From positions 1-64,000 of the IMG/VR virus record IMGVR_UViG_3300018080_000015: a DNA stretch of 64,000 nucleotides. One strand, 5' to 3'. The first letter of the stretch is position 1. Each line of letters opens with the position of its first letter. This stretch comes from a virus. The notes below the pieces were generated by a model. That model searched no databases and had not been told where the DNA came from. It worked only from the letters and a program-made list of their open reading frames with translations. The translations under genes were made by a program, and so were the position numbers. Positions 16,090-42,696 of this stretch are shown piece after piece.

Positions 16090-16155
16090 CACACCAACCG
16101 ATCCAGAAGACCTCGAGGTTCACCAGATCAATCGATCCGAGGTGTCTATGTTCAG
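16090..16155 (+). repeat. 66-bp inverted repeat, left copy (partner 42631-42696)
   Basis: cacaccaaccgatccagaagacctcgaggttcaccagatcaatcgatccgaggtgtctatgttcag matches the reverse complement of 42631-42696 at 64/66 positions. Confidence 0.95.
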
Positions 16156-16181
16156 GTGATCTACCCCGGTACCGAACTGCC

Positions 16182-17198
16182 TCAGCTCATCGCCGGATTT
16201 CCACTATCAAAGCCAACCACGGCGCCGTCCCCCAGGTGAACGTAGTTCCCAGACGAGAGCAGCGCCTTTGGGCTCACGACGGCCGGTTGGATGATACGGT
16301 AGACCTCTGGGTCGATGGTGCCCTTGATCCCATTTCCAGCTACGACTCCGTAGTTGTCGAGGTCTGCGTTGGCAATCATCACCGCAGGCTGCACCCAGTT
16401 CCACGGATCGCGGTCACACACGAGGAGGGACAGTGTGGTATCAGCCGCGGAGTCGCACCCGGGGAAGTAGTACCGGGTCCCGTCCGAGTCCGTCACCCTG
16501 GTGCCGTCCTGCAGGAAGAACTGAATGATCGCGTCTCCCTGAACGTACGGATCGATACCGTTGGAGTTGGTCTTCCACGCCATCTGAATCTCGCCGCTTG
16601 TGTCGGTCGCGTGGGCGAGCTGATCGATGCCGGTACCGAGAATGTGGAGCGCGTCGATCGTCGTCGCTGAATGAGAGTCCCGCTCGAAGCCGATGATGAC
16701 GTCGTCGCCTCTAACGAAGAAGTGGAAGCGGTGCGAGCCGCCGGACACGACAGACGAGAGATCGTATGACGTAGTGTCGGCCTGGAACAGCTCAAAGAGA
16801 AAAGCGTCGCTTGGGATGTAGCCGGCGAGATCTGGAGTGGCCGCTCCCGGGGTGGCTCCCGGGGGAAAATAGGCCACGTAGATGCAGTGGTCGGCCGAGT
16901 TCGCGTTGATGTTGAAACCCAGGTAGTTGTTCGAGGCGTCGATCATCTTGGTGGCCGCGTTGCAGCCGGCTGCCCACACGAAGGCGAGAATGGCCCCGCC
17001 AGTGTGTTCCATCTCGAAGAAGTAGGCGTCTCGTCCGTCTGCTCCGTCGATGATCTTGGTGCGTGCAGTTTTTGTCGACCAATCCGTGAAGCCCGCGAGG
17101 ACAGCGATCACGTCGTCGACTACACCCTCATAGTCCGCATCTGTGAGTGACTGCGGGAGCCACGCATAGGTGTCATAGACCCAACCTCCGTCTGCCAT
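16182..17198 (-). CDS. putative virion (tail fibre/baseplate-associated) protein
   Basis: Last gene of the tail block; GGAG RBS; acidic, beta-rich composition. Confidence 0.65.
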   Translation of the reverse strand: MADGGWVYDTYAWLPQSLTDADYEGVVDDVIAVLAGFTDWSTKTARTKIIDGADGRDAYFFEMEHTGGAILAFVWAAGCNAATKMIDASNNYLGFNINANSADHCIYVAYFPPGATPGAATPDLAGYIPSDAFLFELFQADTTSYDLSSVVSGGSHRFHFFVRGDDVIIGFERDSHSATTIDALHILGTGIDQLAHATDTSGEIQMAWKTNSNGIDPYVQGDAIIQFFLQDGTRVTDSDGTRYYFPGCDSAADTTLSLLVCDRDPWNWVQPAVMIANADLDNYGVVAGNGIKGTIDPEVYRIIQPAVVSPKALLSSGNYVHLGDGAVVGFDSGNPAMS

Positions 17199-17207
17199 TG
17201 GTCTCTC

Positions 17208-17690
17208 CTATGGGCCGACTTCAGCCATCGACTCGCCGATGACGGTACCGTTGGAGGCCGCATCCATCAGGTCGGGGAAGCTCGGCGGAACAATGGGCGT
17301 GTCGTCGCCCCAGAATATAGTACAGGTCCACGAGATGATGCCTGTGATCGGTGTGTACTCGAACGCGAACACTGGAGGCCTGGGCATGGCGTAGCCCGCG
17401 AGCTCTCCAGCATCGATGGCGGCCTGTACGTCTGCCTGAAGCGTGGTGATGTTCGCGCCCGACAAGTCTTCAGCTGTGAACGTCGGGTAGGTCGATGGCG
17501 CGGGGGTGGTCTCGTCGATCAGAGTGAGTATGAGAAGCTCGACGTAGAGCTCATCGTCGTCCTGGACTGCCACGATGGTCTTGAATGCATCGTAATCAGC
17601 GCCCGGGTCGAGGCCTGCGACCACACCGTCGATCACAGACTGGATCTGCTTCTCGTCGGTCACCTCGGCGAAGTACAGCTGCGAGTTCAC
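17208..17690 (-). CDS. hypothetical tail-module protein
   Basis: Overlaps the upstream stop; GGAGGG RBS. Confidence 0.65.
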   Translation of the reverse strand: MNSQLYFAEVTDEKQIQSVIDGVVAGLDPGADYDAFKTIVAVQDDDELYVELLILTLIDETTPAPSTYPTFTAEDLSGANITTLQADVQAAIDAGELAGYAMPRPPVFAFEYTPITGIISWTCTIFWGDDTPIVPPSFPDLMDAASNGTVIGESMAEVGP

Positions 17691-19102
17691 CGCACCCTCC
17701 GGAGACTGAAGTACCCGAGCCTGTTCGTGTACGACGAAGGCACTGAGCTCTTATCCATCACGCTCACCGCATCTCCTGCCTCCAGTGCGAGGAGTTGATG
17801 GAAGTGGATCGACCGCTGTTCGGTGTCAAGAACGTTGTCTTCTTTACAGCGCTCGCCTTGATCTGTGCCGTTGATCCCGAACGCGAACGTGAAGTCCACT
17901 GTTCCAGCTGCGTTCCCCGAGAACGAAAGATCGCACTCGGCCTGATAGAGCCCGCGCCGTGTTACGGTGTGCGTCCCGGCTCCAGCGTTCGGCGTGATTT
18001 CGTAGTTGGTTGGAGCCGTGACCAGCGTCCAGGGCAGGATGGTCTGGAACGCCGCAATCGGGTTCGAGACGACTGGAGCTGCGCACTCCATCGTCCCGAT
18101 CGCGGGCGTGAGCGGCGAGCGCTCATACTGGGTGATCGTGGGTGGGTCCACGCCGTTGTAGACTGACTTGCCGATCAGAATCTTGGTCTCGTCCGCGTCG
18201 TCGTCGAGCGTCAGTGACGTGGAGAGCTTCGGATACCAATGCCCGCTCGCGGTCTCCAGCTCGAGGTACACATAGTATGTGCCCGTGGGGACAGGAACCT
18301 GCAGCGTGTCGCTGAGCAGGTCCATGTCGGAGGTAACCAGACGGTCTCCGATGCGAGCAGCCCACACAGACGTCTGTGGAATGTCCAGATACAGCGTCCC
18401 AGCGATGTCCTCGTACGTCAGAGGCAGTTTCCAGGTCTGCGAGCCCGTCGGAGTGGGTCGGAGCCAACAGGAGCCGGGAGAGAGCATCGCGAGAAGTTGG
18501 TCTTCGGTGCGTTGATCTCTGAAACGGTTTTGCCGGTAACAGGGTTGATGTTCCCAGTTCACTGCGCCGTCGTCATAGACGCGGACTGCAGCGATTGGGA
18601 TGGAGCCCGCGCGGATCTCGTCGTCCAGGTCAGGAGGAGTCCCGTCGGCGGGCGGAACGTACTGGTTTCCCATGATCGCCCGAAACTCGATGCCGTGGTG
18701 CAGTTCGTTGTAGCTCGGGTTTCCGTTGTCGTCCGTGACTGGATCGTGCTCGACGGTGGTGTAGCGCACGAGCAAGATCACCATGCGACTGAAGCCGAAG
18801 GCGGGAAGTACCGAGCCCAGTAGCGAGCCGTGCGTCGCCTCGTCAATGGGCACGGCCTTGCCCGCGCCTTCGTAGTAGACGGGCTGACCGAGAGACCACC
18901 CACGGAGCTCGCCCACAGTCACGGTGGAGGTGAGGAAGGAGAGCGTGGGCGGATCGATCAGCACTGGGTCGTCGGACTCGTTGTCGAGCATGTCCAGGAC
19001 GAGACGATCAAGCCGGTTCTCAATGGCAAGCCAGATCTTTTCGAAGTCGTCTGCGTTGACGACTCGTCCGAACCAGCCCACGATTTGACGGAAAGTGGAC
19101 AT
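17687..19102 (-). CDS. tail fibre/receptor-binding-like protein with C-terminal C1q/TNF-like domain
   Basis: Follows the baseplate genes; C-terminal HTVTRRGLYQAECDLSF..LALEAGDAVSV..YFSLRRV resembles a C1q jelly-roll. Confidence 0.6.
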   Translation of the reverse strand: MSTFRQIVGWFGRVVNADDFEKIWLAIENRLDRLVLDMLDNESDDPVLIDPPTLSFLTSTVTVGELRGWSLGQPVYYEGAGKAVPIDEATHGSLLGSVLPAFGFSRMVILLVRYTTVEHDPVTDDNGNPSYNELHHGIEFRAIMGNQYVPPADGTPPDLDDEIRAGSIPIAAVRVYDDGAVNWEHQPCYRQNRFRDQRTEDQLLAMLSPGSCWLRPTPTGSQTWKLPLTYEDIAGTLYLDIPQTSVWAARIGDRLVTSDMDLLSDTLQVPVPTGTYYVYLELETASGHWYPKLSTSLTLDDDADETKILIGKSVYNGVDPPTITQYERSPLTPAIGTMECAAPVVSNPIAAFQTILPWTLVTAPTNYEITPNAGAGTHTVTRRGLYQAECDLSFSGNAAGTVDFTFAFGINGTDQGERCKEDNVLDTEQRSIHFHQLLALEAGDAVSVMDKSSVPSSYTNRLGYFSLRRVR

Positions 19103-20601
19103 TACCAGGTCTCGTGCGTTGTAGATCCAATGATGTGAAACGTGATGTCGACTGCGTTGCTATCGATGCCGTACTGTACTCCCATGGTGGCGTCCCAGAA
19201 CTGCATAGAAACATCGTTTCCGCCGATGCCGCTCCACCCTGCTGATCCACCCAGGAAGAGTGCTCCGCCAGAGTCTTCTGCGTAGCCGAACGGCAGCGGT
19301 TCTCCTATGATCGTGGGGAGCAGCACGATCTTAAACTGCGCCCCAACCAACGAGACTGAATCAACTCCCTGAGAGGCTTCCGGATCTAGCGTTACGCCGC
19401 CTATGCCATCTGTCTCGGCCTTTCCACGAGCAATGATCCGTGGTCCGATGGGATCTGGGTTTGTCGAAAGTGGAAAAACAGTCGGCAGTGTTCCTAGAGA
19501 TCCAGTGATCACATAGAAGAGAGCAACATCGCGCACTGAGCTTTCAAAGCCCCCTCCGGCGCTCCCTCCGGGAAGTGTCTTGAAAGCTGTCCACGCTTCG
19601 AGAGGAAAGAGCGGGTCGGGCGGAGTACACGTCACAGCGTGAACAGACACGGTCGGGTCTGCTCCAGAGGCAGGATATGCCATCCGTACGACATAGGCTG
19701 TCGTGGCTAGAGGAAAGTCAATCACAGAAGCGGGGACAGTGACCTTACGGAAACCGCGCCGTCGATATTTTTCTGAGTCTCCCGATGGACCGAGATCGCC
19801 GATGCCCAGTACGATCTCTTCACCGCCCGGGAGCGTAAGGCGCCCTCCAGATCCACCGACGGCCGAAGGCGTACCGGCGACGATACCGGTCTCGTTCAGC
19901 ACAATCGGCTTCATCCGGTGGCCTACGATACGACGTAAGAGCTCGAGCTCCTGAGCGAAGTCGGGTTCGTTGGTGCAGATTTCTCTTTCGACGGCCCAGA
20001 TATCATCCGAACCGAAAGCCGAGTCGCCGTCGTCTCTGTGGCAAACAAGGACCGGCACAGCGCCATCATCGACGATCTCGTCGAAGATGGTCGCCATGGC
20101 AGCACTGGAGAACCAGTCGTCCATAACGGGATCGAAGTCCGCGGTGGAGCAGTAGACGCGCAACACCGTCGTGGAGTTGATGCTGTAGTACTTTACTCCG
20201 TAGATGGTGGTGACGGGATCAGCATCCACCTCGGTGTGTGCCGCAGCAATCACGATGAACTTCCGCTTCCCCGCCCCCGGAGTTGTGTCTCCTGTGGAAG
20301 TGTTCGCAGTCGCGTGTGTGGCCGAAGAGCAGTCAACCGCAACTGGAGCGTCCCAGTCCGTCGAGCGCCCGTTGATATCCAGGGCGGCGTTGGCGTTCAC
20401 GTTCACGACCCAGTTCGAGCCGAGGGTCCACTCAGGCGTCCACAGGGTGCGTGCTTCGCTGGAGACGAAACGCCCTTGGATGCGCTCGATTGCGACCTTG
20501 GCTCCCTGCTGGATGTCGTCGAACTCCTGCTCAACCGGCTTGAGTTTCAGGAAGAAGCGCTTACGAGCGAAGTTACTGTTGTTCTCGTCTACTGTGACCA
20601 T
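19102..20601 (-). CDS. tail fibre/baseplate attachment protein, N-terminus similar to 17687-19102
   Basis: Directly after the gpI-like gene; shares the (D/E)F(E/D)xI and TxVxxDPVT..Y patterns with its neighbour. Confidence 0.6.
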   Translation of the reverse strand: MVTVDENNSNFARKRFFLKLKPVEQEFDDIQQGAKVAIERIQGRFVSSEARTLWTPEWTLGSNWVVNVNANAALDINGRSTDWDAPVAVDCSSATHATANTSTGDTTPGAGKRKFIVIAAAHTEVDADPVTTIYGVKYYSINSTTVLRVYCSTADFDPVMDDWFSSAAMATIFDEIVDDGAVPVLVCHRDDGDSAFGSDDIWAVEREICTNEPDFAQELELLRRIVGHRMKPIVLNETGIVAGTPSAVGGSGGRLTLPGGEEIVLGIGDLGPSGDSEKYRRRGFRKVTVPASVIDFPLATTAYVVRMAYPASGADPTVSVHAVTCTPPDPLFPLEAWTAFKTLPGGSAGGGFESSVRDVALFYVITGSLGTLPTVFPLSTNPDPIGPRIIARGKAETDGIGGVTLDPEASQGVDSVSLVGAQFKIVLLPTIIGEPLPFGYAEDSGGALFLGGSAGWSGIGGNDVSMQFWDATMGVQYGIDSNAVDITFHIIGSTTHETW

Positions 20602-21488
20602 TACTCAGCCTCTGGTGTTCCGTCCGGCAAGATTACTCGAAGCACTGTCTCGGGTACACCGCCGATTCGTGCGCCCCCCACACAGTGTGTCCCAACCTCG
20701 AACCAATCGTCCGCGCCGATCAGTGTGTCAACTCCGACACGAGAGTACCCTATCTTCCATTCTTCCTGCGAGTCTAGTTCGGGGACCGTGTAGACAGGGA
20801 TGTCGATTGCTCTGAGGAGCAGATCGACCACCCACCGCACGACAGTCATGAGCGCATCACCCGGGTCGTACGGTAGCGTGATCCAGACCTCATAAGGGAG
20901 CGTTTCGTTCACGGCGCCGCTATCGAGCGCCTCCAGTCCGATGTAGCCCTCTCCAACGACGAACTCCCCGACCTCTCCCAGTGCACCCTCGATCGCAGTG
21001 AGCGCTCGCTCCGAGAGATCTCCTGCGTTTGGCCAGTAGTCCGGTGGCGGAGTCTTGTAGTTGTGGCAGATGGTCGAGGTATCTCCACCTACCTCGGAGT
21101 CGCCCACGATGAAGCAGTCTTCGTCCTGGAACGGGATGTAGATGTCCACGACGATCCCGGTCGCAGTGTAGATGGCGAGCGGGAGCAGCTCGTAGTTGCC
21201 TTTCCACTCTCTGAACGTGGGCAGCGCCGCAAGGAAGCGGCGTAGATAGGGGACAGACGCACCCTGTGGTAGGGAGAGTCCGCGGTGGTAGGCCTGTAGA
21301 CGAAGCTGATCGTCATCCGCGTCGGAAATGGAAAAGGCCTGCCTGATCGCGTCGACGAAGTCTTCCTCCCAGGTCTCAACCTCAGCTTCGATGCCCTCGC
21401 ACAACTTCTGCAGATTGCCGTAGACGTCCATCTTCCGCCTGTAAGGCGAAAGAAGCTCGAAGAACGACTTTCCGAGGATATTGATCAT
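20601..21488 (-). CDS. baseplate wedge protein (P2 gpI-like)
   Basis: L..LA...G..LRRFL..FREWKG pattern; immediately downstream of the gpJ-like gene. Confidence 0.7.
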   Translation of the reverse strand: MINILGKSFFELLSPYRRKMDVYGNLQKLCEGIEAEVETWEEDFVDAIRQAFSISDADDDQLRLQAYHRGLSLPQGASVPYLRRFLAALPTFREWKGNYELLPLAIYTATGIVVDIYIPFQDEDCFIVGDSEVGGDTSTICHNYKTPPPDYWPNAGDLSERALTAIEGALGEVGEFVVGEGYIGLEALDSGAVNETLPYEVWITLPYDPGDALMTVVRWVVDLLLRAIDIPVYTVPELDSQEEWKIGYSRVGVDTLIGADDWFEVGTHCVGGARIGGVPETVLRVILPDGTPEAE

Positions 21489-22975
21489 CAGGGTGTGGCC
21501 GGGAGAAGGAGGACGTTCGCCGTGATCTTGGGGAGCTGGTACTCGCCGGGTTCGATGAAAAGGGAATCAGCGTCCGGGAGATCCACGTGATCGACACCGT
21601 CGATGAGCTCCAGTGTCGTGATGAGGTTGCTCAGGTTGATGGTGCGGCCCACATCCACGATAAAGTGGGGCTCTTCTCCGGCCACTGAGTCGAGACTGAA
21701 GAAGTTGAGCGCGGCGTTTATCACAGTGGTGTAGAGCGACGAGAGCTCATCGATGTCCAGGCCGGATGCGGCGTAGACGTAGATGCTCAGCGTTTCTTCG
21801 TAGAACTCGATCGGCGCCATCGTGATCTTTGCAGTACCATTGGTCTTGTAGGCCGCCTCGATGTCATCAGCGATGGCCTCGAGCTCTTCGGTTGTTGGTG
21901 CCGCGGAAAGGTCTACCGCTGCGAAGATGGCTACCTCGTTGGGAGCTACATAGGATAACTGGTTGCGTGTGTAAGCCCGAGCTCGAGCTGCACCGAAGAG
22001 CATTGCCGCGTTTTGGTAGTCCTCTCTGGAGACAACACCGCCGTGGATCGCCATTGTCATCGGGGCCTTGACCCTGATGACATCGACGCTCTCGTCGTCG
22101 GTGCCGCGCACAGTCTGTGCGATACTCGTGGCGGTGGCCACCATCGGATAGCCAGTACCATCCACGATGCTATCGACGATCTTGGTGATCGTTCCTGAAC
22201 CGACGTTGCCCGCCGTGCCGCCCCCGTTCAAGGACGTAATTTCGATCTTCGAACCCGCTTCGGGGATGAACCCTCTGAGTCCATCGCCGAATTCCACCCA
22301 GTAGCGGCGCTTGTTCGGTAGAAGCTCAGATGCAACCACGCGGAAGACTTCCGAGGTGGGCAGTGCGAGCGCCCACGTGTTGATGCGCTCCCATGCGACG
22401 CCATCAACGTAGACCTGGATCGTCGAGGTGTCGACGATGGGGCTTACGAGCTCGTAGAGCTGTCCGGCATCTCCGGAAGAAGTGATGATCGATTCGCTCT
22501 TCGTGGTGCCGTGCTGGACCTCAACGTCTAGTGTCGTGACGCCGGCCGCCTTCACAGCGTCGTTCACCGCCTCGAAGATTTGCGGCTTGGAACCGTCAGT
22601 TGGGTCCGTGGAGAAGCGGTGGCCGGCTCGGATGAGAAACGTCTTCTCTGAGGGAGCCGTGATCCGCTCGGTGTAGTGCGCCGCTCGAGCTCCTGGCGGC
22701 ACGTACCCGTAGACGTCGACGGCGTGGTCGAGGACCGACTGCGGCTCAATGGCGGTCGCGATAGAAGCCTCTCCAGCTGCGCGCACCGCCTCGACGTATA
22801 GCGAATCTCCGAGAGTCGCTACACTGTCGACGATGGCAGCGAAAAGCTCTGTGAGCGCCATCTCGAATTCGGAGACGTCCAGTCCGTAGGCGCTCGCAAG
22901 GAAGCCGATGAGCGATTGCTGGATGCTCAGCGCGTCTCTGGACTCGAGCGGGAGTTTGAATCGCTTGGCAATCAT
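21488..22975 (-). CDS. baseplate J-like / gp6-like wedge protein
   Basis: VYVDGVAW, VEFGDGLRGFIP, GGGTAGNVG, GTDDES..IR..AP, VSREDY. Confidence 0.9.
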   Translation of the reverse strand: MIAKRFKLPLESRDALSIQQSLIGFLASAYGLDVSEFEMALTELFAAIVDSVATLGDSLYVEAVRAAGEASIATAIEPQSVLDHAVDVYGYVPPGARAAHYTERITAPSEKTFLIRAGHRFSTDPTDGSKPQIFEAVNDAVKAAGVTTLDVEVQHGTTKSESIITSSGDAGQLYELVSPIVDTSTIQVYVDGVAWERINTWALALPTSEVFRVVASELLPNKRRYWVEFGDGLRGFIPEAGSKIEITSLNGGGTAGNVGSGTITKIVDSIVDGTGYPMVATATSIAQTVRGTDDESVDVIRVKAPMTMAIHGGVVSREDYQNAAMLFGAARARAYTRNQLSYVAPNEVAIFAAVDLSAAPTTEELEAIADDIEAAYKTNGTAKITMAPIEFYEETLSIYVYAASGLDIDELSSLYTTVINAALNFFSLDSVAGEEPHFIVDVGRTINLSNLITTLELIDGVDHVDLPDADSLFIEPGEYQLPKITANVLLLPATP

Positions 22976-22978
22976 CGG

Positions 22979-23386
22979 CTACGTCTGTGGAAGGGTGATT
23001 TGGGTCCCGATCGGCTCTCCTGTGCGCGTGAGCACACCAAGGATGATGACACGAATCGCACGCACTGATGTACCTTGGACCCGGTTGTGAAGTGTACCAG
23101 CTTGCGCCTCGATGAGCGTAAAGCGGACGTGCTTTTCGTTGTTGACGAGCTGTGTCCGGATATCGCTCTCGATTGTAGAGAGCTTTGTACGGTCTGAAGG
23201 CTCGTCGAGGTAGTCCGGAAGGCGAGTGCCTAGCTTTGGTCTGTGGGGCCTCATACGGACGCGCTCGAGGAGGATGGCTCTGATGTTTTGCACCGCCCGA
23301 GTCTTTTCGTCAGGGCACGTGGCGAATGGTCCACGCTTCGACCCGCCCATCGGCTCGCTCAGATGAAAGTCCTTACCCAACACCAA
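22979..23386 (-). CDS. gp25/gpW-like baseplate protein
   Basis: QNIRAILL..R..RPKLGTRL..LDEP..NEKHV. Confidence 0.8.
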   Translation of the reverse strand: MVLGKDFHLSEPMGGSKRGPFATCPDEKTRAVQNIRAILLERVRMRPHRPKLGTRLPDYLDEPSDRTKLSTIESDIRTQLVNNEKHVRFTLIEAQAGTLHNRVQGTSVRAIRVIILGVLTRTGEPIGTQITLPQT

Positions 23387-32284: not shown

Positions 32285-32317
32285 GGTTTCTTCCTGGTCC
32301 GCGGGGACAAGATGCCT

Positions 32318-32359: not shown

Positions 32360-32401
32360 GTCCCGGTTAAGGCTCTTCACGCGGCTATTGTAACTGAGTG
32401 A

Positions 32402-32875: not shown

Positions 32876-32923
32876 TTTCCTCTCCTTCTTTGCGAGGCTC
32901 AGGCTCGCGACTCGGCTTGGCTC

Positions 32924-35152: not shown

Positions 35153-35225
35153 CTGTCAAACTCCTCGTGTCCAGACTCTATCAGGCGGACCCAGTGTACT
35201 GTTTTTTGTTGTCTGAGGCGAGAGC

Positions 35226-35657: not shown

Positions 35658-35666
35658 GGGCTCCTC

Positions 35667-36410: not shown

Positions 36411-36559
36411 TGCTGGTTTCCTCCGCTCTTGGTTTTTTCAGGCGCTCTGACCTTCTTTGACCCGATTCGCTCGAACTTTAGAATCGCAGATTCCAAGAGC
36501 TCTCTTTCGGTGCGGGTGTCTTCCGGCTCAGGCTGCGCCGCAGTTGCGCTCATGCTCAT
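36407..36559 (-). CDS. small hypothetical protein
   Basis: Start and stop both overlap neighbouring genes. Confidence 0.45.
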   Translation of the reverse strand: MSMSATAAQPEPEDTRTERELLESAILKFERIGSKKVRAPEKTKSGGNQQ

Positions 36560-36867
36560 ACCTTCAACAGCGCCACTATGATTGAAGCAAGCGCAGCGAT
36601 CAAGGCTACTATGATGCCTCCAGCGACGGCTATTTTCTGTGTTCGTGTTTCTTGTTCTTTCTTCTCCTGCTTCTCTCGCCACATCTTGAGGGAGACGATT
36701 GATGCCTCGGCTGTGCCTACGCGACCCTCAAGCTTCAGCAGTGCAATGGCGACGTCCCGGTGTCCGTCGGCAATCACTTCTATTTCCTGATCGCGTTTTT
36801 CGCACGGGATAGCATCGAGCTTCGTCTCGATCCGAACCAGTCTGGATTTTATGTCCTCTTCGTTCAT
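36556..36867 (-). CDS. small membrane protein (XhlA/holin-like)
   Basis: RLVRIETKLD coil plus one C-terminal hydrophobic helix. Confidence 0.6.
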   Translation of the reverse strand: MNEEDIKSRLVRIETKLDAIPCEKRDQEIEVIADGHRDVAIALLKLEGRVGTAEASIVSLKMWREKQEKKEQETRTQKIAVAGGIIVALIAALASIIVALLKV

Positions 36868-37226
36868 TTTGAGGCTGTACTCTGTAGCTGGATTACAAAC
36901 GGCGAAATCAGCATCCGCCAGTCCTCAGTGGGCGGCTTGATCAGTACGTCTCCAACATAATCTCCGACGGCGATTGTTAGCTCTGCCGCCGTGAACGTGA
37001 TCCGGGCCTTTCCGGGGTCAGTGCCCTGATCCAGCAGCTCGATTCCCGAGCCGACGGTCTTTTCCCATAGAAGCGTGTCGTCGTCCCCAGTACCGTCTCT
37101 GGCTGTGTGCTTGAGATCATAACCGGTCAACACCTGCAGCGCTCCGGCTGGGTCTCGAGCAGTGATGATGTAGTGGCCTTCGACGTTCTGATGGAGCTCA
37201 ACGACGTCGCCGCAGCAATCCGACAT
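36864..37226 (-). CDS. BppU-N-like virion protein
   Basis: D..G....LTG......R...GSGI...GKARITFTAAE..GDYVGDV. Confidence 0.6.
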   Translation of the reverse strand: MSDCCGDVVELHQNVEGHYIITARDPAGALQVLTGYDLKHTARDGTGDDDTLLWEKTVGSGIELLDQGTDPGKARITFTAAELTIAVGDYVGDVLIKPPTEDWRMLISPFVIQLQSTASK

Positions 37227-37227
37227 T

Positions 37228-37539
37228 TCAGTCCTCCCCGCACGGAGTGAGAGCGCCCGAGAATCTTTCAGTCTCAAAAGAGCCGGAGAAGCGCTCGGCG
37301 CTCAGTGCTCCGTCATAGCCCTCTTGCTCTAGTGTAGCGGAGAAGTTTTCAGCTGCACATATGCCGGAATAGGCCTCGCGCGAAAGAGTACCAACCAGGC
37401 ATTCCGGGACCGGATCGAGCGTGTTGATCCACGTCCACAGGAGCTGATCCCGTCGAGATTCCTCCAGCACCAGCCGAGAGCCTGGTGTGGGCTTGCTCAG
37501 CGGAATCAGGTTGGTCTGTACACCCTGATTGATGATCAT
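37228..37539 (-). CDS. hypothetical protein
   Basis: Coupled ORF with short (F/Y)SG repeats at the C-terminus. Confidence 0.6.
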   Translation of the reverse strand: MIINQGVQTNLIPLSKPTPGSRLVLEESRRDQLLWTWINTLDPVPECLVGTLSREAYSGICAAENFSATLEQEGYDGALSAERFSGSFETERFSGALTPCGED

Positions 37540-39728
37540 ACGACTTCAGGCACGGAGAGCCCGGTGGCTCCTACGTAAGTGTCTGGTCCGTTGGTGACGG
37601 TGGCGACCACGATGAGGAGTGTCCCCTCTTCAGGAAGCACGTCTATATGGTCGATGTACACGTCCCAGTACCCTTGCGCGTTCGGCGAGAGCCCGGAGAC
37701 GGAGTGCACCACAGAGCCGTTCAGCAGTACGGAGAGGGCGAGCGTCGCCCCGGGCATCGGAGTGAACTGTCTTTCGAGCTCGACGCGTACAGCTCCGTAC
37801 AGGCCTGCTGGTGCGGACGTTTTATCCACCCAGCTTTGAACCACCTGCTGCAAAGAGCCTTGCCAATCTCCAGAGCCGTGAGCAGCGGAGAGCTCCGTGT
37901 CCACGTCGGTCGGAGTATGACTCGACCGACTGGACACTGCGGTGTCGAGGTAATCCAGGAGCGCAGCTCGGATGCTTGTAAGGCCTTGAGCATCGAGGAC
38001 TGCAGTGATATCAGCGCTCGAGAGATCGTTGAGCGCTGCGACGGCCGCGATGACTGCAGCGACTGCAGCTTGCGTAGTGCTGTGTGCTGCCTGCTGGAGC
38101 GATTCGTCCGCGGGATCTGAGGGGAGTCGCCCGTCAATCGCCGCAGTGTCCGTGAGGATATCGTCGAGCCGGTTTTGTGCCTCACCAGCACTATCCGGAT
38201 CGGTGTGCGTGGTGATGTCCTCGTCCCAGACGGCCGATGCGATTGCAGCCGCCCCGCCAGCACCCTCCCAGCTCCCCGACCCGTGTTCAATCGAGAGCAA
38301 GATGTCCACGTCTGTCTGGCTGTGCGAGCTGCGACTACTGACCGCGGCGTCCAGAAAGTCGAGTAGCGCTGCTCGCACAGCGGTGTATCCCTGAGCTGTC
38401 AGCGCCGCCTGGACGTCGGCTGAGCTCAGGTCGTTCAATGCGTTGATCGCTGCAACAGTCGCAGCATGCAGGGCAGCCAAATCGCTCTGATCGGCCGGAT
38501 CGGCCGGCAGCCTCGAGTCGATCGCATCGGTATCTGCAAGGACATCCTGTAAGTCCCCTCCACCAGCAGGAGAGGCTTGAGATCCAACGACTCCAAGCGC
38601 CCCGCGAATCTGTTCGCGCTCTGCACTCGTCCAGTCCTGTGCACTTGTACCTTCCCATGAACCACCCCCATGCGACGCTGAAAGTTCGGTGTCGACGTCG
38701 GCAGCTGAGTGACTAGAGCGGGAGCTAATCGCCGCGTCGAGAAAATCCAACAGGGCGGCTCGAACCGATGTGTAGCCTTGAGCCGTCATGGCGGACTGCA
38801 CGTCCGCTTGAGACAAATCGTTGAGAGCAGCTATCGCTGCCTGCGTCGCCGCATGGGCCGCCTGCTGCAGAGACTCATCCGCAGGATCCGAAGGCAGCCT
38901 CGTATCGATAGCGTCTGTGTCCGCCAGAATTGCCGCGATATCCGCCCCGTCGAACGGCGTCGAATCTGAGAGGATGGCATCTCGTACGTCCGCAGCAGAA
39001 TGAGAAGACCTGGAGGAGACGGTTGCGTCGAGGTTGTCGATCAGTGCTGCGCGGGCGACCGAGTAGCCTTGAGACGTCATCGCCGCTTGCACGTCCGCCT
39101 GTGAGAGATCGCTGAGCGCGGCAATGTCCGCAACGACAGACGAAATCGCGGCGTCCAAGTTGTCGAGTAGGGCCGCTCGAACAGTTGTGTATCCTTGGGC
39201 AGTAAGCGCGGACTGCACGTCTGCCTGAGAGAGGTTGTTCAAAGCGGCGATATCGGCCTGTGTTTGAGCATGCGCCGCTTGTTGGAGAGACTCGTCAGCA
39301 GGATCGGTCGGAAGACGGCTGTCGATGGCATCCGTATCCGCAAGAACAGCGTCGAGGTCTGCCGGCATGTTCGCCGCCGCGAGCTCATCCAGGTATCCAG
39401 CCCGTGCGGCCGTGTACCCCGCAGCGCTCATCTCTTCGGCTACGGTAGACGCTACAAACAGGTCTGTGGCGCGCATGTGGTCGGGGCTTTCGGTCGTGTG
39501 CCCGCTGTCTGTATAGACGATGTACACCCCCACCACGTAATCCAGTGAGGGCATTGCATAGCCATCGTCGACGTAGAGGCCGTTTGCGACGTGAGACAGA
39601 TCGCGCGTCGTGATGAGCGTGCCACTCGGATTGTAGAGCTCGCACTGCGGGTACATGCCCGTATCTCCGTCTTCGAGCTGGAGAGTAAGCGGAAGGTTGT
39701 CCCCGACTTGAAAGCGCACGTTGGGCAT
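37536..39728 (-). CDS. long helical repeat fibre-like virion protein
   Basis: Repeated DTDAIDxRLPxDPADESLQQAAH..ALNDLSQADVQ.A.T.QGYT.VRAALLD.LDAA.SSRSSH units. Confidence 0.8.
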   Translation of the reverse strand: MPNVRFQVGDNLPLTLQLEDGDTGMYPQCELYNPSGTLITTRDLSHVANGLYVDDGYAMPSLDYVVGVYIVYTDSGHTTESPDHMRATDLFVASTVAEEMSAAGYTAARAGYLDELAAANMPADLDAVLADTDAIDSRLPTDPADESLQQAAHAQTQADIAALNNLSQADVQSALTAQGYTTVRAALLDNLDAAISSVVADIAALSDLSQADVQAAMTSQGYSVARAALIDNLDATVSSRSSHSAADVRDAILSDSTPFDGADIAAILADTDAIDTRLPSDPADESLQQAAHAATQAAIAALNDLSQADVQSAMTAQGYTSVRAALLDFLDAAISSRSSHSAADVDTELSASHGGGSWEGTSAQDWTSAEREQIRGALGVVGSQASPAGGGDLQDVLADTDAIDSRLPADPADQSDLAALHAATVAAINALNDLSSADVQAALTAQGYTAVRAALLDFLDAAVSSRSSHSQTDVDILLSIEHGSGSWEGAGGAAAIASAVWDEDITTHTDPDSAGEAQNRLDDILTDTAAIDGRLPSDPADESLQQAAHSTTQAAVAAVIAAVAALNDLSSADITAVLDAQGLTSIRAALLDYLDTAVSSRSSHTPTDVDTELSAAHGSGDWQGSLQQVVQSWVDKTSAPAGLYGAVRVELERQFTPMPGATLALSVLLNGSVVHSVSGLSPNAQGYWDVYIDHIDVLPEEGTLLIVVATVTNGPDTYVGATGLSVPEVV

Positions 39729-39737
39729 GACTGTCTC

Positions 39738-40124
39738 TTACGGGTCGTAGGTGTCGATCTCCCCAGGCGGGATGAGGCCGACCGAAGAAAGGTACACGTA
39801 CAGGGAAATCTCGATGTCCTCGAAGTAGTTGCTGTCGGGATCGATATCCGCTTTGAGCCACAGCCAGTAGTCCCCCGTCTCGGGAGTGCTATCTGAGAAC
39901 TCAACGTGGATACCCGGCACTCCAGGCACCTCACAGGGGATCCCGTTGAAAAAGGCGCAGTACGCGAACCACGCTTCGAATTTACCCTCTTTGTTGAGGT
40001 AGGCTCTGGCGTGCTCGTGGCTGTGCTTGCACAGCTTCAGATGAGTGAGTGGGATGCCGGGGTCGACGCCTCCCGGCCACTCCGCGTCGATGGGCGTGTC
40101 GAGCTCCCAGATTTTCTGAGACAT
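39738..40124 (-). CDS. hypothetical protein
   Basis: GGAGG/GAGG RBS before ATG 40124; overlaps the 3' end of the GT gene. Confidence 0.65.
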   Translation of the reverse strand: MSQKIWELDTPIDAEWPGGVDPGIPLTHLKLCKHSHEHARAYLNKEGKFEAWFAYCAFFNGIPCEVPGVPGIHVEFSDSTPETGDYWLWLKADIDPDSNYFEDIEISLYVYLSSVGLIPPGEIDTYDP

Positions 40125-41308
40125 GCCTCGTATACCTCCAATGTCTGAGCTGCAGGACTGTCCCAAGAGTAGCGCTTTGCGGTCTCGAGCGCACGATCTA
40201 CTCGACTCTGATCGGGCATCCAAGCTCGCAGGGCAGAAACCAGACCACCGACCGTCGGCTCGATGATAACGGCGTTGGTGTCATTGCAGAAAGAACCGAG
40301 ACCGCCGACGCCCGTTGTGATCAGTGGCACAGAAGCTGCCATCCATTCGAGCGCCACGATACCAAAGGGCTCGTGCAGCGAGGGCACGAGGCCGACCGTA
40401 GCCGATTTCAGTCGCGCCCACTTGGGGAGGCCAAAGTCCTCTTCGCGCGACCAGGTGACGTTGGGGGTTGCCGCAATGAGCCCATCCATGATAGGCACCA
40501 TCTCCTCCAGCGAGGGCGAGATAGCCGCTTGGATGAGGAAGTCCCACTCTGGGAGCTCTTTTGCGGCATCAACGACCAGCTGCAGACCCTTCGAGGGAAC
40601 CAACCTACCGACGAAGGCAGCCAGAGGTCTGTCTGACTCTCGCCGTTCGGGCTTGACGGCCGCGAAAGCCTCCCAGTCCACCCCGTTTGGGATGACGCGA
40701 ATCTTTTCGGGGGGAACCAGAAATGTCTCTTCGAGCATCTTCCGATAGGAAGGGCTTACAGCAATCACCCTGTTGGCTGTGTGGTACGCGTGAAGTTCCG
40801 TCTCGCAGCCCCACTCATAGTTCGGAAGGCTATCCGGGTGCACCGACGTGTGACTGAGATGTGACGTCACAACGAGATGGGCTCGGTGCGCGAGACAGGC
40901 CACCTTGGCGACGGGCAAGAGATGGGTCTCGTGCATGTGAACCAGATCGAAGTGCTCGTGCGCGAAGAAGTGAGCCCAATTGCAGACGAAGTTTTCGAAC
41001 TTCACCACCTCGTGAGCCATGCCCTTGACCAGGTCCATGTTGTGCTCGTTGAGGTTTCGGATGTGAAGCAGCCGATAAGAACCGGTAGGAGCTCCGGCCC
41101 GCCACTCCGGCTCTGATACCTCCCGCGGCACCCCATCTTCGACGATCAACAGTCGCTGGTACTGGTCCTTGCCGATGCCCATCAGCGTGAGGTCGACGTG
41201 CTCGCACAGACGGCTGGCGATGGACAACACGTGTACTCCAAGACCTCCCTGTGGTTCGAAGGGACTCTCAAACAGCAGCATCAAGACTCTAGGGCGTTCG
41301 CCAGACAC
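40037..41308 (-). CDS. GT4 (GT-B) glycosyltransferase
   Basis: GGLGVHV, DLVHMH, VIAVS, VIPNGVD, FVGRLVPSKG, VPSLHEPFGIVALE; GTG start at 41308 with RBS. Confidence 0.93.
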   Translation of the reverse strand: MSGERPRVLMLLFESPFEPQGGLGVHVLSIASRLCEHVDLTLMGIGKDQYQRLLIVEDGVPREVSEPEWRAGAPTGSYRLLHIRNLNEHNMDLVKGMAHEVVKFENFVCNWAHFFAHEHFDLVHMHETHLLPVAKVACLAHRAHLVVTSHLSHTSVHPDSLPNYEWGCETELHAYHTANRVIAVSPSYRKMLEETFLVPPEKIRVIPNGVDWEAFAAVKPERRESDRPLAAFVGRLVPSKGLQLVVDAAKELPEWDFLIQAAISPSLEEMVPIMDGLIAATPNVTWSREEDFGLPKWARLKSATVGLVPSLHEPFGIVALEWMAASVPLITTGVGGLGSFCNDTNAVIIEPTVGGLVSALRAWMPDQSRVDRALETAKRYSWDSPAAQTLEVYEACLRKSGSSTRPSTRSGREASTPASHSLI

Positions 41309-41798
41309 GGTACTCCACCTCCAGATCGACCCGAGCGGTGATGCCAGCACTCGGGTGCGTGTTCTTCATCTCAACCTTCAGGGTGTCCCCATCGATCCAC
41401 GCACGGTTGATGAAGGTCCAGTAGTTCCCCGTTCCGGAGCCGGCCCCAAAGTTGAACGACGACAGCTTCCCATCGTCGGAGTACGACCACCACTGCGTCC
41501 AGAAGTCGTAGCAGGTGTAGGCGATACCGCTGGGGTACCCCGGGATCGTCGTGTACTTGTCGTCGACAGACTGCGCCACGGAATCGGCGTCGCTCCGGGT
41601 TGCCAGGATAGCTGCTCCAATCCGCCGATGGTTCGGGGCAGCGTTGGGGATCCCCAAAAAGACAAGTGCGACGTCGTAGTCGTCTCGGTCGAGCTGAATC
41701 TCTACCGTGTACGTTCCACCAGCTCCCGAACACACTTCGTTGGAAACGCTCGCGCGGCCGCGTCTGAATCCGAACGGTAGGAGCCGGGAGAAGGCCAT
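41289..41798 (-). CDS. hypothetical virion-type protein, paralog B
   Basis: Aligns end to end with 41800-42300. Confidence 0.75.
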   Translation of the reverse strand: MAFSRLLPFGFRRGRASVSNEVCSGAGGTYTVEIQLDRDDYDVALVFLGIPNAAPNHRRIGAAILATRSDADSVAQSVDDKYTTIPGYPSGIAYTCYDFWTQWWSYSDDGKLSSFNFGAGSGTGNYWTFINRAWIDGDTLKVEMKNTHPSAGITARVDLEVEYRVWRTP

Positions 41799-41799
41799 G

Positions 41800-42300
41800 T
41801 CAGCTCCTCCAGACGCGCCATTCGGCCTCGAAGATCAGGTTGGCTGCGACGGTCGCGTGGCTGTTTGAAAAGGTGATCTCCAGGTTGGAGCCGTTGATGC
41901 GGCACGAGTCGATCCTAACTGGCGTGGCCGTGCCGCCCCCGCCGCCCCCGAAGTACCGCTCAGAAAGAAACGCGTCGTCCGAGTAGGAATACCAACTGTG
42001 CCGCCACACGGTGACGGTGTACGGAAGGCCACTGGGGTAGGATGGGATCGTGGTCCAGGCGAGTTTGGTTGCCTGACTCACCGCGTCGTCCGCGTCGTCC
42101 GTGAACAGGATTCCTGCGGTCACTCGTCGACGGCTAGTCAGAGACACTGTGTTCGGGAGGCCGAGAAACAGCATCCCGATGTTGTAGTCGCTACGGTCGA
42201 GCGAGACCTGGATGGTTTTGGTGCCTGCGGCCGGAATACTGTCCGAGATGGACGCGCGCCCACGTTGGAATGACAGTGCTTGGTATTCCGACTTTGCCAT
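41800..42300 (-). CDS. hypothetical virion-type protein, paralog A
   Basis: Shares RGRAS, LDRxDY, FLGxPN, TTIPxYPSG, SYSDD and ExRVWR with paralog B. Confidence 0.75.
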   Translation of the reverse strand: MAKSEYQALSFQRGRASISDSIPAAGTKTIQVSLDRSDYNIGMLFLGLPNTVSLTSRRRVTAGILFTDDADDAVSQATKLAWTTIPSYPSGLPYTVTVWRHSWYSYSDDAFLSERYFGGGGGGTATPVRIDSCRINGSNLEITFSNSHATVAANLIFEAEWRVWRS

Positions 42301-42638
42301 CAGCCATTGATGATGTTGCGGAGCTTGTTTCTGCAGTTCTCGAGGGGATCGAGACAGCGGTGCACGCCCGCCACAAGGGCCTCTTGGATGTCCCCCACGG
42401 CGTCACTGTACTTGTACTTGCCGTGAGTCTTCTTCCTGAAAACCCCCCTGTAACTCCACGTCTCGTTTTCGGCATCCCAGATCGCTCGTACGCCCACGAT
42501 CCCCAGTTTGGTCTTGGACAACACGAGCACATCGTCTGAGCCGCGCTTGGGAAGAGACACGGTCTTCTTCCCAGGCAACTGCCCGCCGAAGACGTTGAGG
42601 ATTGCCGCGGACACTGCGATCTGTTCTGGGCTGAACAT
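42300..42638 (-). CDS. hypothetical protein whose RBS and start codon lie inside the 66-bp repeat
   Basis: GAGG-cgtct-ATGTTCAG lies within the repeat; TGATG coupling to the next gene. Confidence 0.75.
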   Translation of the reverse strand: MFSPEQIAVSAAILNVFGGQLPGKKTVSLPKRGSDDVLVLSKTKLGIVGVRAIWDAENETWSYRGVFRKKTHGKYKYSDAVGDIQEALVAGVHRCLDPLENCRNKLRNIING

Positions 42639-42696
42639 AGACGCCTCGGATCGATTGATCTGGTGAACCTCGAGGTCTTCTGGATCAGTTGGTGTG
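42631..42696 (-). repeat. 66-bp inverted repeat, right copy (partner 16090-16155)
   Basis: Reverse complement is cacaccaactgatccagaagacctcgaggttcaccagatcaatcgatccgaggcgtctatgttcag. Confidence 0.95.

What the first reader, a model, noticed from the sequence alone, without database searches (positions are those of the whole stretch)
16090..42696. Tail and glycosyltransferase block (26.5 kb) bracketed by 66-bp inverted repeats that carry the first gene's RBS and start: candidate invertible tail switch
Seen: 16090-16155 and the reverse complement of 42631-42696 match at 64/66 nt. Both copies sit at gene-block boundaries and point inward. Each has internal dyad symmetry (GATC-N6-ACCTCGAGGT-N6-GATC) and ends in GAGG-N5-ATGTTCAG. 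In the right copy that ATG starts gene 42638 (MFSPEQ..); in the left copy it reads only MFR-stop. Inference: a crossover inside the repeat would flip the GT4 cassette, sheath, tube, tape measure, baseplate and fibres as one block. Gene 42638 would stay intact, but the block would move from downstream of the head operon to downstream of the replication operon. That could switch the timing or amount of tail expression, for example decoupling tails from heads. No site-specific recombinase is visible in the window; the phage's own RecA-like protein and RuvC are possible agents. Alternatives are a duplicated promoter producing antisense RNA, or a scar of a past rearrangement.
Basis: partly seen in the sequence, partly recalled or inferred. 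Interest (0 to 1): 0.85.

Follow-up and report, generated by a model that had tools for sequence, protein, structure and literature searches.

The report
Inverted leader copy brackets phage tail genes
An uncultured 88-kb phage carries two inverted, near-identical 66-base copies of one gene's start signal, one at each end of its 26.5-kb tail-gene block; the far copy looks like a later insertion, and no dedicated flipping enzyme was found, so a programmed tail switch is possible but unproven.

Summary
Positions 16090-16155 (+) and 42631-42696 (-) match at 64/66. They are the only two copies in the complete 88,186-bp virus record, and both are intergenic.

The right copy is the working leader (SD, ATG and 5 further bases) of a real 112-aa gene. 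That gene opens the GT4/sheath/tube/baseplate block, directly after the head-neck genes. The left copy lies in the convergent spacer after the replication/recombination arm. It sits inside a 95-nt segment flanked by a 10-nt direct repeat, so it looks like a secondary insertion.

A six-frame search of the whole genome found no serine or tyrosine recombinase. A UvsX-like recombinase, a RuvC-like resolvase and an SbcCD-like nuclease are present.

Whether the block flips could not be tested. The only run is held as k=31 contigs that break at the 43-nt identical core.

My reading is an inserted leader copy that serves, at most, as a substrate for occasional homologous-recombination inversion. I do not read it as a programmed switch.

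The main rival is an RNA-level one: the trailer of the tail operon is a 66-nt antisense of its own leader. The same genome has short leader-trailer repeats around early genes. The scan has not noted this feature on other DNA.

The parts
42631..42696 (-). Right copy (X_R). This is the working leader of the first gene of the tail block. It holds the 10-nt palindrome, 3 GATC sites, SD GAGG, 5 nt, the ATG at 42638, and 5 further coding bases.
   Evidence: gene start supported
16090..16155 (+). Left copy (X_L). It matches X_R at 64/66 and lies in the convergent spacer. Its ATG (16148) reads only M-F-R-stop.
16100..16142 (.). 43-nt core identical in both copies. In run X1 it is a separate 43-nt unitig at depth 15.7, against 6.7-10.2 for the contigs laid on either side of it.
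16051..16060 (+). First copy of the 10-nt direct repeat GTGATCTACC.
   Evidence: The motif occurs 3 times in the genome, and two of them flank X_L. Only 0.72% of 5000 random 66-nt segments have a flanking repeat of 10 nt or more.
16156..16165 (+). Second copy of the 10-nt direct repeat. It starts at the base right after X_L ends.
16061..16089 (+). 29-nt filler between the first direct repeat and X_L. No source for it elsewhere in the genome beyond chance 10-mers. Rich in 6-nt palindromes.
16034..16181 (.). 148-nt convergent spacer between the last gene of the replication arm (stop at 16033) and the last gene of the tail block (stop at 16182-16184). The scan found no terminator-like or sigma-70-like site on either strand.
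42697..42732 (-). 36 nt between the stop of gene 42733-43113 and X_R. It forms two adjacent hairpins; 0 of 200 shuffles fold as well (DNA parameters, z = -4.8). Not part of the repeat.
42300..42638 (-). First gene of the block, 112 aa, function unknown. One full-length homologue (P0011, 37% identity) in 1.84 billion representatives.
16182..17198 (-). Last gene of the block, 338 aa. Positive coding score, no family match.
16156..42630 (-). The bracketed 26,475-nt block. All genes are on the minus strand: GT4 40037-41350, sheath 32924-35152, tube 32402-32875, probable tape measure 28365-31202, hub/spike 24197-25252, gp25-like 22979-23386, wedge 21488-22975, and distal ORFs of unknown family.
9375..10640 (+). 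UvsX-like / RecA-like recombinase. A possible agent of homologous exchange between the copies.
   Evidence: PF00154, 37.7 bits; phrog_97, 1.6e-22
12009..12650 (+). RuvC-like Holliday-junction resolvase.
   Evidence: phrog_159, 7.2e-17; Pfam match below cut-off
624..3740 (+). SbcD/SbcC (Mre11/Rad50-like) fusion nuclease.

Best explanation
The right copy is the original. It is the translation-initiation leader of the first gene of the neck-to-fibre block.

The left copy is a secondary copy of that leader. It was inserted in inverted orientation, together with 29 nt of unknown origin, into the gene-free convergent spacer where the two transcription arms meet. The insertion duplicated 10 nt of the target.

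It is not a Gin/Hin-type switch, because the genome has no site-specific recombinase.

The phage carries a T4-like homologous-recombination set, and the copies share a 43-nt perfect core inside 66 nt. The pair should therefore recombine now and then and produce a minority of genomes with the tail block flipped. The assembled head-neck-tail colinear orientation would be the standing, functional one.

Shown: the repeat, its position, the flanking direct repeat, the gene content, the absence of an invertase, and the presence of the recombination genes.

Inferred: the direction of copying, the occurrence and rarity of inversion, and the lack of a programmed role.
For: - The repeat is unique, significant and intergenic.
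- X_R starts a real gene. X_L opens only a 3-codon frame.
- The 10-nt direct repeat abuts the end of X_L exactly. Only 0.72% of 5000 random 66-nt segments have such a flanking repeat.
- Similarity stops sharply at both ends of the 66 nt.
- Zero matches for Resolvase, Phage_integrase or Recombinase at E <= 1 in six frames of the complete record. Controls gave matches in 13, 14 and 6 of 14 genomes.
- UvsX-like, RuvC-like and SbcCD-like genes are present.
- Arbiol et al. 2010 (PMC2839356, Discussion passage read) state that the T4 recombination system needs only patches under 50 bp, citing Singer et al. 1982.
- Coding-sense GC3 skew falls steadily along the minus-strand arm (rho 0.47, p 3e-5, 71 genes). 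The trend keeps its sign inside the block (rho 0.34, p 0.095, 25 genes). This fits one long-standing orientation.
- X shares no motif with the 17 other late intergenic regions examined. It has no Rfam match and no fold better than shuffles.
Against: - No read, contig or relative was seen that shows either inversion or its absence.
- The insertion mechanism is unknown. The 95-nt segment has no terminal inverted repeats, and the filler has no source in the genome.
- 97% identity with sharp edges could reflect selection on the pair rather than youth.
- The arms sit exactly at the 5' and 3' limits of one co-directional gene block. This is what a functional bracket, at DNA or RNA level, would look like.
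- The same genome has 10 short leader-trailer inverted pairs around early genes, so bracketing is a habit of this phage.
- The within-block skew trend is not significant.
Confidence: 0.45

Rival explanations
1. RNA-level clamp. Any minus-strand transcript that reads out of the last tail gene carries, 26 nt after its stop codon, a 66-nt antisense of the leader, SD and AUG of the first gene of the same block. Pairing, in cis across 26.5 kb or in trans between transcripts, would block initiation at gene 42638. It would also create a long double-stranded substrate for a host RNase III. The result would be feedback once the operon has been read to its end, or a processing step that separates head and tail messages.
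For: - On the minus-strand RNA the arms pair over 66 nt with one G-U and one C-A. The duplex is -130.7 kcal/mol.
- The scan found no terminator-like site between the last stop codon and the 3' arm, nor anywhere in 15500-16700.
- The same genome holds 10 pairs of 22-28 nt, 329-2134 nt apart, all between 74.6 and 81.7 kb. In the 7 pairs I inspected, the 5' arm lies just upstream of an SD and the 3' arm a few nt after a stop codon.
- A bacterial precedent exists: 3'-UTR pairing with the SD region of the same mRNA, with RNase III cleavage, in icaR (PMC3868564, abstract read).
Against: - The loop is more than ten times longer than the largest early pair (26.5 kb against at most 2.1 kb).
- Unlike the early pairs, the 5' arm covers the SD and AUG. 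Cleavage would kill the first gene rather than release it.
- The G-U/A-C split of the two mismatches is the same on either strand, so it says nothing about strand.
- The phage has no RNase III of its own: no match, and one 14-bit sub-threshold match.
- No RNA run is listed, so co-transcription of both arms is unshown.
- The flanking direct repeat points to a recent insertion.
Confidence: 0.22
2. Adaptive flip-flop. The pair exists to invert the tail block at appreciable frequency by the phage's own homologous recombination. Two stable isomers would result, with tail genes read either after the head genes or after the replication genes.
For: - The geometry keeps every gene intact after a crossover.
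- The recombination genes are present.
- Precedents without a named recombinase exist. Anabaena cyanophages carry a ~30-kb region flanked by 400-700-nt inverted repeats, with both isomers shown by PCR and read mapping (10.64898/2026.02.14.705889, abstract and sections 8 and 9 read). phiMatilda flips terminal segments across 1.5-kb and 18-kb repeats (10.64898/2026.10.21.760668, passages read).
Against: - The repeat is 6 to 10 times shorter than in those precedents.
- The left copy looks like a recent insertion.
- No benefit of reading tail genes from the replication arm is evident.
- The skew gradient runs smoothly through the block in its present orientation.
- Isomers were not observable.
Confidence: 0.12
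3. Duplicated cis-acting DNA site. X would hold a promoter or a binding site (the 30-nt imperfect dyad with GATC ends) for a phage or host regulator. That factor would act at the head-tail boundary and at the convergence point, for example driving antisense transcription into the fibre genes or insulating the block.
For: - A 10-nt perfect palindrome sits inside a 30-nt dyad.
- GATC is locally dense: 5 and 6 sites per 120 nt against a mean of 0.76.
- Both copies point the same way as the upstream operon's transcription.
Against: - No sigma-70-like site was found in either junction region.
- The dyad and its half-sites occur essentially only in the two copies (2, and 3 with one extra).
- No motif is shared with the 17 other late intergenic regions examined.
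- Two coding regions have equally dense GATC clusters.
- A functional site need not include the SD, the ATG and 5 coding bases.
Confidence: 0.13
4. Assembly artefact: one junction is a chimera made at the repeat.
For: In run X1 the k=31 contigs cannot link the flanks across the 43-nt core, so I could not verify the linkage myself.
Against: - All four flanks and both variant bases exist in the run at similar depth. The core unitig is at depth 15.7 against 6.7-10.2 for the contigs on either side.
- The record closes on itself with a 123-nt overlap. By my recall this is the largest k of a common MEGAHIT setting, and it is longer than the repeat.
- The assembled order head-neck-sheath-tube-baseplate is the usual one for contractile-tailed phages.
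Confidence: 0.03

Closest known systems
Recombinase-independent genome isomerism across inverted repeats in tailed phages: Anabaena cyanophages A-1(L), N-1, Elbi, A-Lf14 (Shi et al. 2026 preprint) and Burkholderia phage Matilda
   Same: A segment of tens of kb of a lytic-type tailed phage genome is bracketed by an inverted repeat. No dedicated invertase has been identified. Homologous recombination is proposed as the agent.
   Different: In those phages the repeats are 400-700 nt, or 1.5 and 18 kb, are conserved in position among relatives, and both isomers were shown experimentally. Here the repeat is 66 nt (43-nt perfect core), the left copy looks like a fresh insertion, and neither isomers nor relatives could be examined. 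Supplementary Table 6 of Shi et al. lists further phages and might include shorter repeats; I could not see it.
Site-specific invertible segments of phages: Mu G/Gin, P1 C/Cin, e14 P/Pin (named from recall and from the introduction of Shi et al.)
   Same: Short inverted repeats flank tail genes, and inversion leaves the genes expressible.
   Different: Those segments are 3-4 kb, swap alternative fibre C-termini, and need a serine invertase encoded next to them. Here the block is 26.5 kb and holds the whole tail module. There are no alternative gene halves and no invertase anywhere in the genome.
PeSL mobile regulatory cassettes of T4-type phages (Arbiol et al. 2010, PMC2839356, abstract and passages read; Comeau et al. 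2014, PMC4122927, listing only)
   Same: A short repeated regulatory cassette stands in front of a poorly conserved gene, inside a phage that has a T4-like recombination system. Recombination between the copies rearranges the genome.
   Different: PeSLs are many per genome, mostly in direct orientation, and are made of a sigma-70 promoter plus a terminator stem-loop. X has two copies, inverted, with no promoter-like or terminator-like site found. It carries an SD and a start codon instead.
5'-UTR/3'-UTR pairing of icaR mRNA in Staphylococcus aureus (PMC3868564, abstract read), and rRNA leader-trailer helices (recalled)
   Same: A 3' trailer is complementary to the SD region of the same transcription unit. 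The expected results are blocked initiation and an RNase III substrate.
   Different: icaR pairs a 7-nt motif within a monocistronic mRNA. Here the complementarity is 66 nt across a 26.5-kb polycistronic block, and no RNA evidence exists.

Membership tests
Serine/tyrosine-recombinase invertible segment (Gin/Hin/Cin type) | Inverted crossover sites flank the segment | tested here: met
   66-nt inverted repeat at both ends of 16156-42630
Serine/tyrosine-recombinase invertible segment (Gin/Hin/Cin type) | A site-specific recombinase is encoded by the element or genome | tested here: not met
   PF00239, PF00589 and PF07508: 0 matches at E <= 1 in six frames of the complete 88,186-bp record. Controls matched in 13, 14 and 6 of 14 genomes.
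Serine/tyrosine-recombinase invertible segment (Gin/Hin/Cin type) | Both orientations coexist in a population | not testable with these tools
   The only run is held as k=31 contigs that break at the 43-nt core. The cap on read laying was used.
Homologous-recombination flip-flop isomerism (cyanophage A-1(L) group, phiMatilda) | Long inverted repeats (400 nt or more) flank a large segment | tested here: not met
   The segment is large (26.5 kb), but the repeat is 66 nt with a 43-nt perfect core.
Homologous-recombination flip-flop isomerism (cyanophage A-1(L) group, phiMatilda) | Repeats are conserved at analogous sites in relatives, and orientation varies among relatives | not testable with these tools
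   No relative in viral, metagenome or genome collections.
Homologous-recombination flip-flop isomerism (cyanophage A-1(L) group, phiMatilda) | A recombination system able to use the repeat | tested here: met
   UvsX-like, RuvC-like and SbcCD-like genes are present. That under 50 bp suffices in T4 is taken from a passage in PMC2839356, not tested here.
PeSL-type mobile regulatory cassette | Many dispersed copies per genome | tested here: not met
   Two copies only
PeSL-type mobile regulatory cassette | Composed of a promoter plus a terminator stem-loop | tested here: not met
   0 promoter-like sites in either junction region. The one terminator-like site found (42606-42618, + strand) lies outside the repeat. 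The fold of X is no better than shuffles. The scan covers sigma-70-type promoters only.
PeSL-type mobile regulatory cassette | Stands next to poorly conserved (ORFan-like) genes | tested here: met
   Gene 42300-42638 has no homologue in the word-indexed search and one full-length homologue in the exhaustive search.
Leader-trailer RNA pairing (icaR type, rRNA processing helices) | The 5' leader and the 3' trailer of one co-directional unit are complementary on the sense strand | tested here: met
   66 nt with one G-U and one C-A. The 3' arm starts 26 nt after the last stop codon, and the 5' arm covers the SD and AUG.
Leader-trailer RNA pairing (icaR type, rRNA processing helices) | Both arms are present in RNA, and the duplex forms or is cleaved | not testable with these tools
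   No RNA holder is listed. The terminator scan finding nothing only permits read-through; it does not show it.

The most novel reading that the evidence does not exclude
An operon-scale RNA clamp. The 3' trailer of the 26.5-kb tail operon is a 66-nt antisense of the operon's own leader, SD and AUG. Completed transcripts would therefore shut off or cut the start of the operon, in cis or in trans. This would be the largest member of a gene-bracketing helix system that this phage also uses, with 22-28-nt arms, around its early genes.
Probability: 0.2. Interest if true: 0.8.

Novelty: new variant of a known kind. Interest (0 to 1): 0.45.

Why it matters
If the block flips, this would be the shortest repeat known to me that supports recombinase-free isomerism of a whole tail module. 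It would show how a small inserted leader copy can rewire the timing of virion genes.

If the pair acts in RNA, it would extend 5'-3' UTR pairing from single genes to a 26-kb operon. It would also tie in with the unusual bracketed early genes of the same phage.

If it does neither, it is a clean snapshot of how a phage regulatory leader gets copied into a safe-harbour spacer and so creates the substrate for a future large inversion.

All three readings can be tested cheaply with junction PCR or long reads and one strand-specific RNA-seq experiment.

Tried and rejected
Coding explanation. Both copies are crossed in the same frame by long ORFs (208 and 214 aa). Those ORFs share only the 23 residues encoded by the repeat and have negative coding scores. 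Rejected.

Structured RNA. Folds of either copy, with or without flanks, give z between +0.12 and -1.7 and -0.8 for the repeat as DNA. Rfam gave nothing at gathering score over the window, and nothing at E <= 1 over 15900-16300. Rejected for the repeat itself. The 36-nt flank upstream of X_R does fold well.

Element shared with other phages. A scan of viral contigs with the degenerate dyad gave 3 loci that agree only at the specified bases, which is chance level. blastn of the right junction against 50,697 phage records gave no match.

Relatives.
- The search for related loci with the first gene, the last gene, the capsid protein and the polymerase found no relative in viral contigs.
- The capsid alignment A1 found only 21-28%-identical loci in viral and metagenome contigs. 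tblastn of 86 proteins of this genome against L003-L008 gave only the three known capsid matches and one unrelated 35% match, to L008.
- A1 found nothing in genome contigs.
- tblastn against phage records gave 4 records at under 27% identity.

Reads. One run (X1, probably the source sample) is listed, and no RNA holder is listed. Its contigs stop at the repeat core, so they say nothing about linkage or isomers.

Phage-encoded RNase III. None for PF14622. There is one 14.3-bit match below the 27-bit cut-off for PF00636, inside ORF 7735-9405. From its translation I take that ORF to be an SSB-like protein. That is my recall, not a test.

Target-site-like repeats around the early-gene arms. 2 of 20 arms have a flanking repeat of 7 nt or more, against 16.8% of random segments, so this is not a shared trait.

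RNA.duplexfold over whole intergenic segments gave meaningless long duplexes. I replaced it with short-word BLAST.

GATC clustering is no higher than in two coding regions.

The Protein Atlas gave no usable lead for the 112-aa protein; the best score was 0.75. The three long hits (P0010, P0012, P0013) belong to three unrelated repeat families, and I treat them as spurious.

Full report
**1. The observation.** The two arms, 16090-16155 on the plus strand and 42631-42696 on the minus strand, match at 64 of 66 positions, with 26,475 nt between them. A self-BLAST of the whole genome gives E = 9e-26; every other inverted pair is 32 nt or shorter. The 30-nt core occurs twice in the window, and 0 of 100 dinucleotide shuffles reach two matches. 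The window is bases 1-64000 of an 88,186-bp virus record that closes on itself with a 123-nt overlap. The record holds only these two copies. The mismatches are at repeat positions 10 and 54, leaving a 43-nt identical core at 16100-16142.

**2. Gene map.**
- The plus strand up to 16033 holds replication and recombination genes: an SbcD/SbcC fusion, a family A polymerase with a UDG domain, a UvsX-like recombinase, a 5'-3' exonuclease, a RuvC-like resolvase, an SLT-domain protein and a DUF932 protein.
- From 64 kb down to 42733 the minus strand holds head genes: a T4-like portal, a protease-like protein, a gp23-like capsid protein and an SU10-type adaptor.
- From 42638 down to 16182 the minus strand holds the 112-aa gene, two small ORFs, a GT4 glycosyltransferase, the sheath, the tube, a probable tape measure, the hub/spike, a gp25-like protein, a wedge protein and distal ORFs without a family.
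- So the assembled order is head, neck, tail on one strand, convergent with the replication arm.

**3. Both copies are intergenic.**
- Two long ORFs cross the copies in the same frame, but they share only the repeat-encoded residues. Their coding scores are negative and their GC3 is low, while the neighbouring minus-strand genes score positive with GC3 of 0.76-0.78.
- X_R fills most of the 94-nt spacer after gene 42733-43113. It carries the SD and ATG of gene 42300-42638.
- That gene is real. It has a positive coding score. An exhaustive search of 1.84 billion representatives found one full-length homologue (P0011, 111 aa, 37% identity, E about 1e-6) whose N-terminus aligns within two residues. 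The word-indexed search found only the gene itself.
- X_L lies in the 148-nt convergent spacer. It starts 56 nt after the stop of the last plus-strand gene and ends 26 nt before the stop of the last tail gene. Its ATG opens only M-F-R-stop.

**4. The left copy looks inserted.**
- A 10-nt direct repeat (GTGATCTACC) lies at 16051-16060 and again at 16156-16165. The second copy begins at the base after X_L ends.
- The motif occurs three times in the genome. Only 0.72% of 5000 random 66-nt segments have a flanking direct repeat of 10 nt or more within 45 nt.
- The 29 nt between the first repeat and X_L have no source elsewhere in the genome beyond chance 10-mers. Similarity between the two loci stops sharply at both ends of the 66 nt.
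- Removing one repeat unit and the 95 nt would leave a compact 43-nt convergent spacer.
- I read X_R as the source and X_L as a copy placed in a spacer that tolerates insertions. The mechanism is unknown: the segment has no terminal inverted repeats, and the genome has no transposase-type recombinase among the families searched.

**5. No invertase, but a recombination kit.** Six-frame searches of the complete record with Resolvase, Phage_integrase and Recombinase gave no match at E <= 1. The same searches matched in 13, 14 and 6 of 14 control genomes. This removes the defining enzyme of Gin/Hin/Cin-type switches. The phage does encode a UvsX-like recombinase (phrog_97, 1.6e-22), a RuvC-like resolvase (phrog_159, 7.2e-17) and an SbcCD-like nuclease. 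A passage in Arbiol et al. 2010 says that the T4 system needs only patches under 50 bp, citing Singer et al. 1982. A 66-nt repeat with a 43-nt perfect core is therefore a plausible, if weak, substrate. This is inference from a related system, not a test.

**6. Does it flip? This could not be tested.**
- One run holds the sequence. It is probably the source sample and is kept as k=31 contigs.
- Laid on 6200-26000, its contigs stop at the repeat. One piece ends at 16129. A 43-nt unitig covers 16100-16142 at depth 15.7. A 17-kb piece starts at 16113. The two pieces from the right locus run off as loose ends at 16090 and 16155.
- Because the core is longer than k, parental and recombinant joins use the same words, so nothing can be said about isomers.
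- The four flanks and both variant bases are present, and the core unitig is at depth 15.7 against 6.7-10.2 for the contigs on either side. This argues against a missing or chimeric copy.
- The 123-nt end overlap equals, by my recall, the largest k of a common MEGAHIT setting. If so, the assembler resolved the repeat with words longer than 66 nt.

**7. Relatives.**
- The capsid protein has homologues at 57%, 48% and 52% identity on contigs of 82, 27 and 3.5 kb.
- Scans of viral, metagenome and genome collections gave nothing closer than 21-28% identity.
- tblastn of 86 proteins of this genome against loci L003-L008 gave only the three capsid matches already known and one unrelated 35% match, to L008.
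- So conservation of the left copy and the orientation of the block in relatives remain unknown.

**8. Indirect evidence on orientation.** Coding-sense GC3 skew falls along the minus-strand arm, from +0.03 (65-88 kb) through -0.07 (head) to -0.11, -0.13 and -0.17 in the three thirds of the tail block. Over 71 minus-strand genes, rho is 0.47 with p = 3e-5. Inside the block the sign is the same but not significant (rho 0.34, p 0.095, 25 genes). A block that flipped often, or that flipped recently, should flatten or reverse this trend. This is weak support for a long-standing present orientation.

**9. What the repeat is not.** It does not fold better than shuffles, and it matches no Rfam family. 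The scan found no sigma-70-like site near either copy and no terminator-like site within either copy or in the left junction region. Its dyad and half-sites occur essentially only in the two copies. It shares no enriched word with the 17 other late intergenic regions examined. It has no counterpart in phage records or in IMG/VR beyond chance.

**10. The RNA rival.**
My own BLAST finds 10 inverted pairs of 22-28 nt, 329-2134 nt apart, all between 74.6 and 81.7 kb.
- In the 7 pairs I inspected, the 5' arm lies just upstream of an SD and the 3' arm a few nt after a stop codon.
- The 66-nt pair has the same placement relative to a co-directional unit: leader and trailer. On the minus-strand RNA it would pair with one G-U and one C-A, at -130.7 kcal/mol. 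The scan found no terminator-like site between the last stop codon and the 3' arm.
- Pairing would bury the SD and AUG of gene 42638, as the icaR 3'-UTR does on a small scale (PMC3868564, abstract).
- Against this reading: the loop is more than ten times longer than any early pair. The 5' arm covers the SD and AUG instead of sparing them. The mismatch pattern is strand-neutral. There are no RNA data. The direct repeat suggests a recent insertion. I give this reading about 0.2.

**11. Comparison with what is known.**
- Recombinase-free isomerism of ~30-kb regions has been shown for Anabaena cyanophages with 400-700-nt repeats, and for phiMatilda with 1.5-kb and 18-kb repeats. The present case shares the layout but not the repeat length, and isomers are unshown.
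- It fails the enzyme test for Gin/Hin-type switches.
- It resembles PeSL cassettes in being a small regulatory unit in front of a poorly conserved gene in a recombination-proficient phage. It differs from them in copy number, orientation and composition.

**12. Verdict.**
- The 'switch' reading is neither excluded nor supported.
- The best-supported reading (0.45) is a secondary, inverted insertion of the tail-block leader at the convergence point. Its main consequence would be to offer the phage's own recombination system a short substrate for occasional inversion.
- Rivals: RNA clamp 0.22, cis-acting DNA site 0.13, adaptive flip-flop 0.12, artefact 0.03.
- Junction-spanning reads, the relatives' contigs and one RNA-seq experiment would decide.

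Noticed in passing
window 42697-42732 (minus strand): Two adjacent hairpins lie between the stop of the last head/neck gene and X_R: a 6-bp stem with a 4-nt loop, then an 18-nt perfect palindrome. 0 of 200 shuffles fold as well (z = -4.8). A 14-nt stem also links 42716-42729 to 42649-42662, inside X_R. This may be a terminator or processing site at the head-tail boundary.
   Followed up: partly
genome 74626-81710 (beyond the window): Ten inverted pairs of 22-28 nt, 329-2134 nt apart. In the 7 pairs inspected, each brackets one or a few early genes, with 2-3 imperfections near the middle of the helix. An earlier finding (e1-6111902) had already noted this.
   Followed up: partly
window 46138-46202 (minus strand): A G+C-rich hairpin followed by a T-run lies directly after the stop of the capsid gene, like an intrinsic terminator or attenuator.
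   Followed up: no
window 9853, 11075, 13897, 20706: Contigs of run X1 match the window at 95% or better and then continue as unlike sequence at these places. This suggests mosaic relatives of this phage in the same sample.
   Followed up: no
window 15737-16129: Two short contigs of run X1 covering the end of the last replication-arm gene and the left flank of X_L have depth 6.7, against 9.5-10 for their neighbours. Contig breaks fall at about 15532, 15766 and 15891. The cause is unknown; it may be strain variants.
   Followed up: no
window 7735-9405 (+): A 556-aa protein with no Pfam or PHROG family above threshold. It has a Cys/His cluster and a long Asp/Glu-rich tail. It looks like a gp32-type single-strand-binding protein, by my recall only. 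It also gives a sub-threshold 14-bit match to Ribonuclease_3.
   Followed up: partly
whole genome, minus-strand genes 16-88 kb: Coding-sense GC3 skew falls steadily from +0.03 to -0.17 along the direction of transcription (rho 0.47, p 3e-5, 71 genes).
   Followed up: partly
window 42617-42623 and 42725-42731: A 7-nt direct repeat flanks X_R at 7 and 28 nt. This is chance level, since 16.8% of random segments have one. It does mirror the layout of the left copy: repeat, about 29 nt, X, repeat.
   Followed up: partly
window 42300-42638 (-): The first gene of the block is nearly an orphan, with one 37%-identical homologue of the same length among 1.84 billion representatives. Together with the GT4 gene, it may belong to a variable insert between the neck and sheath genes.
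   Followed up: partly
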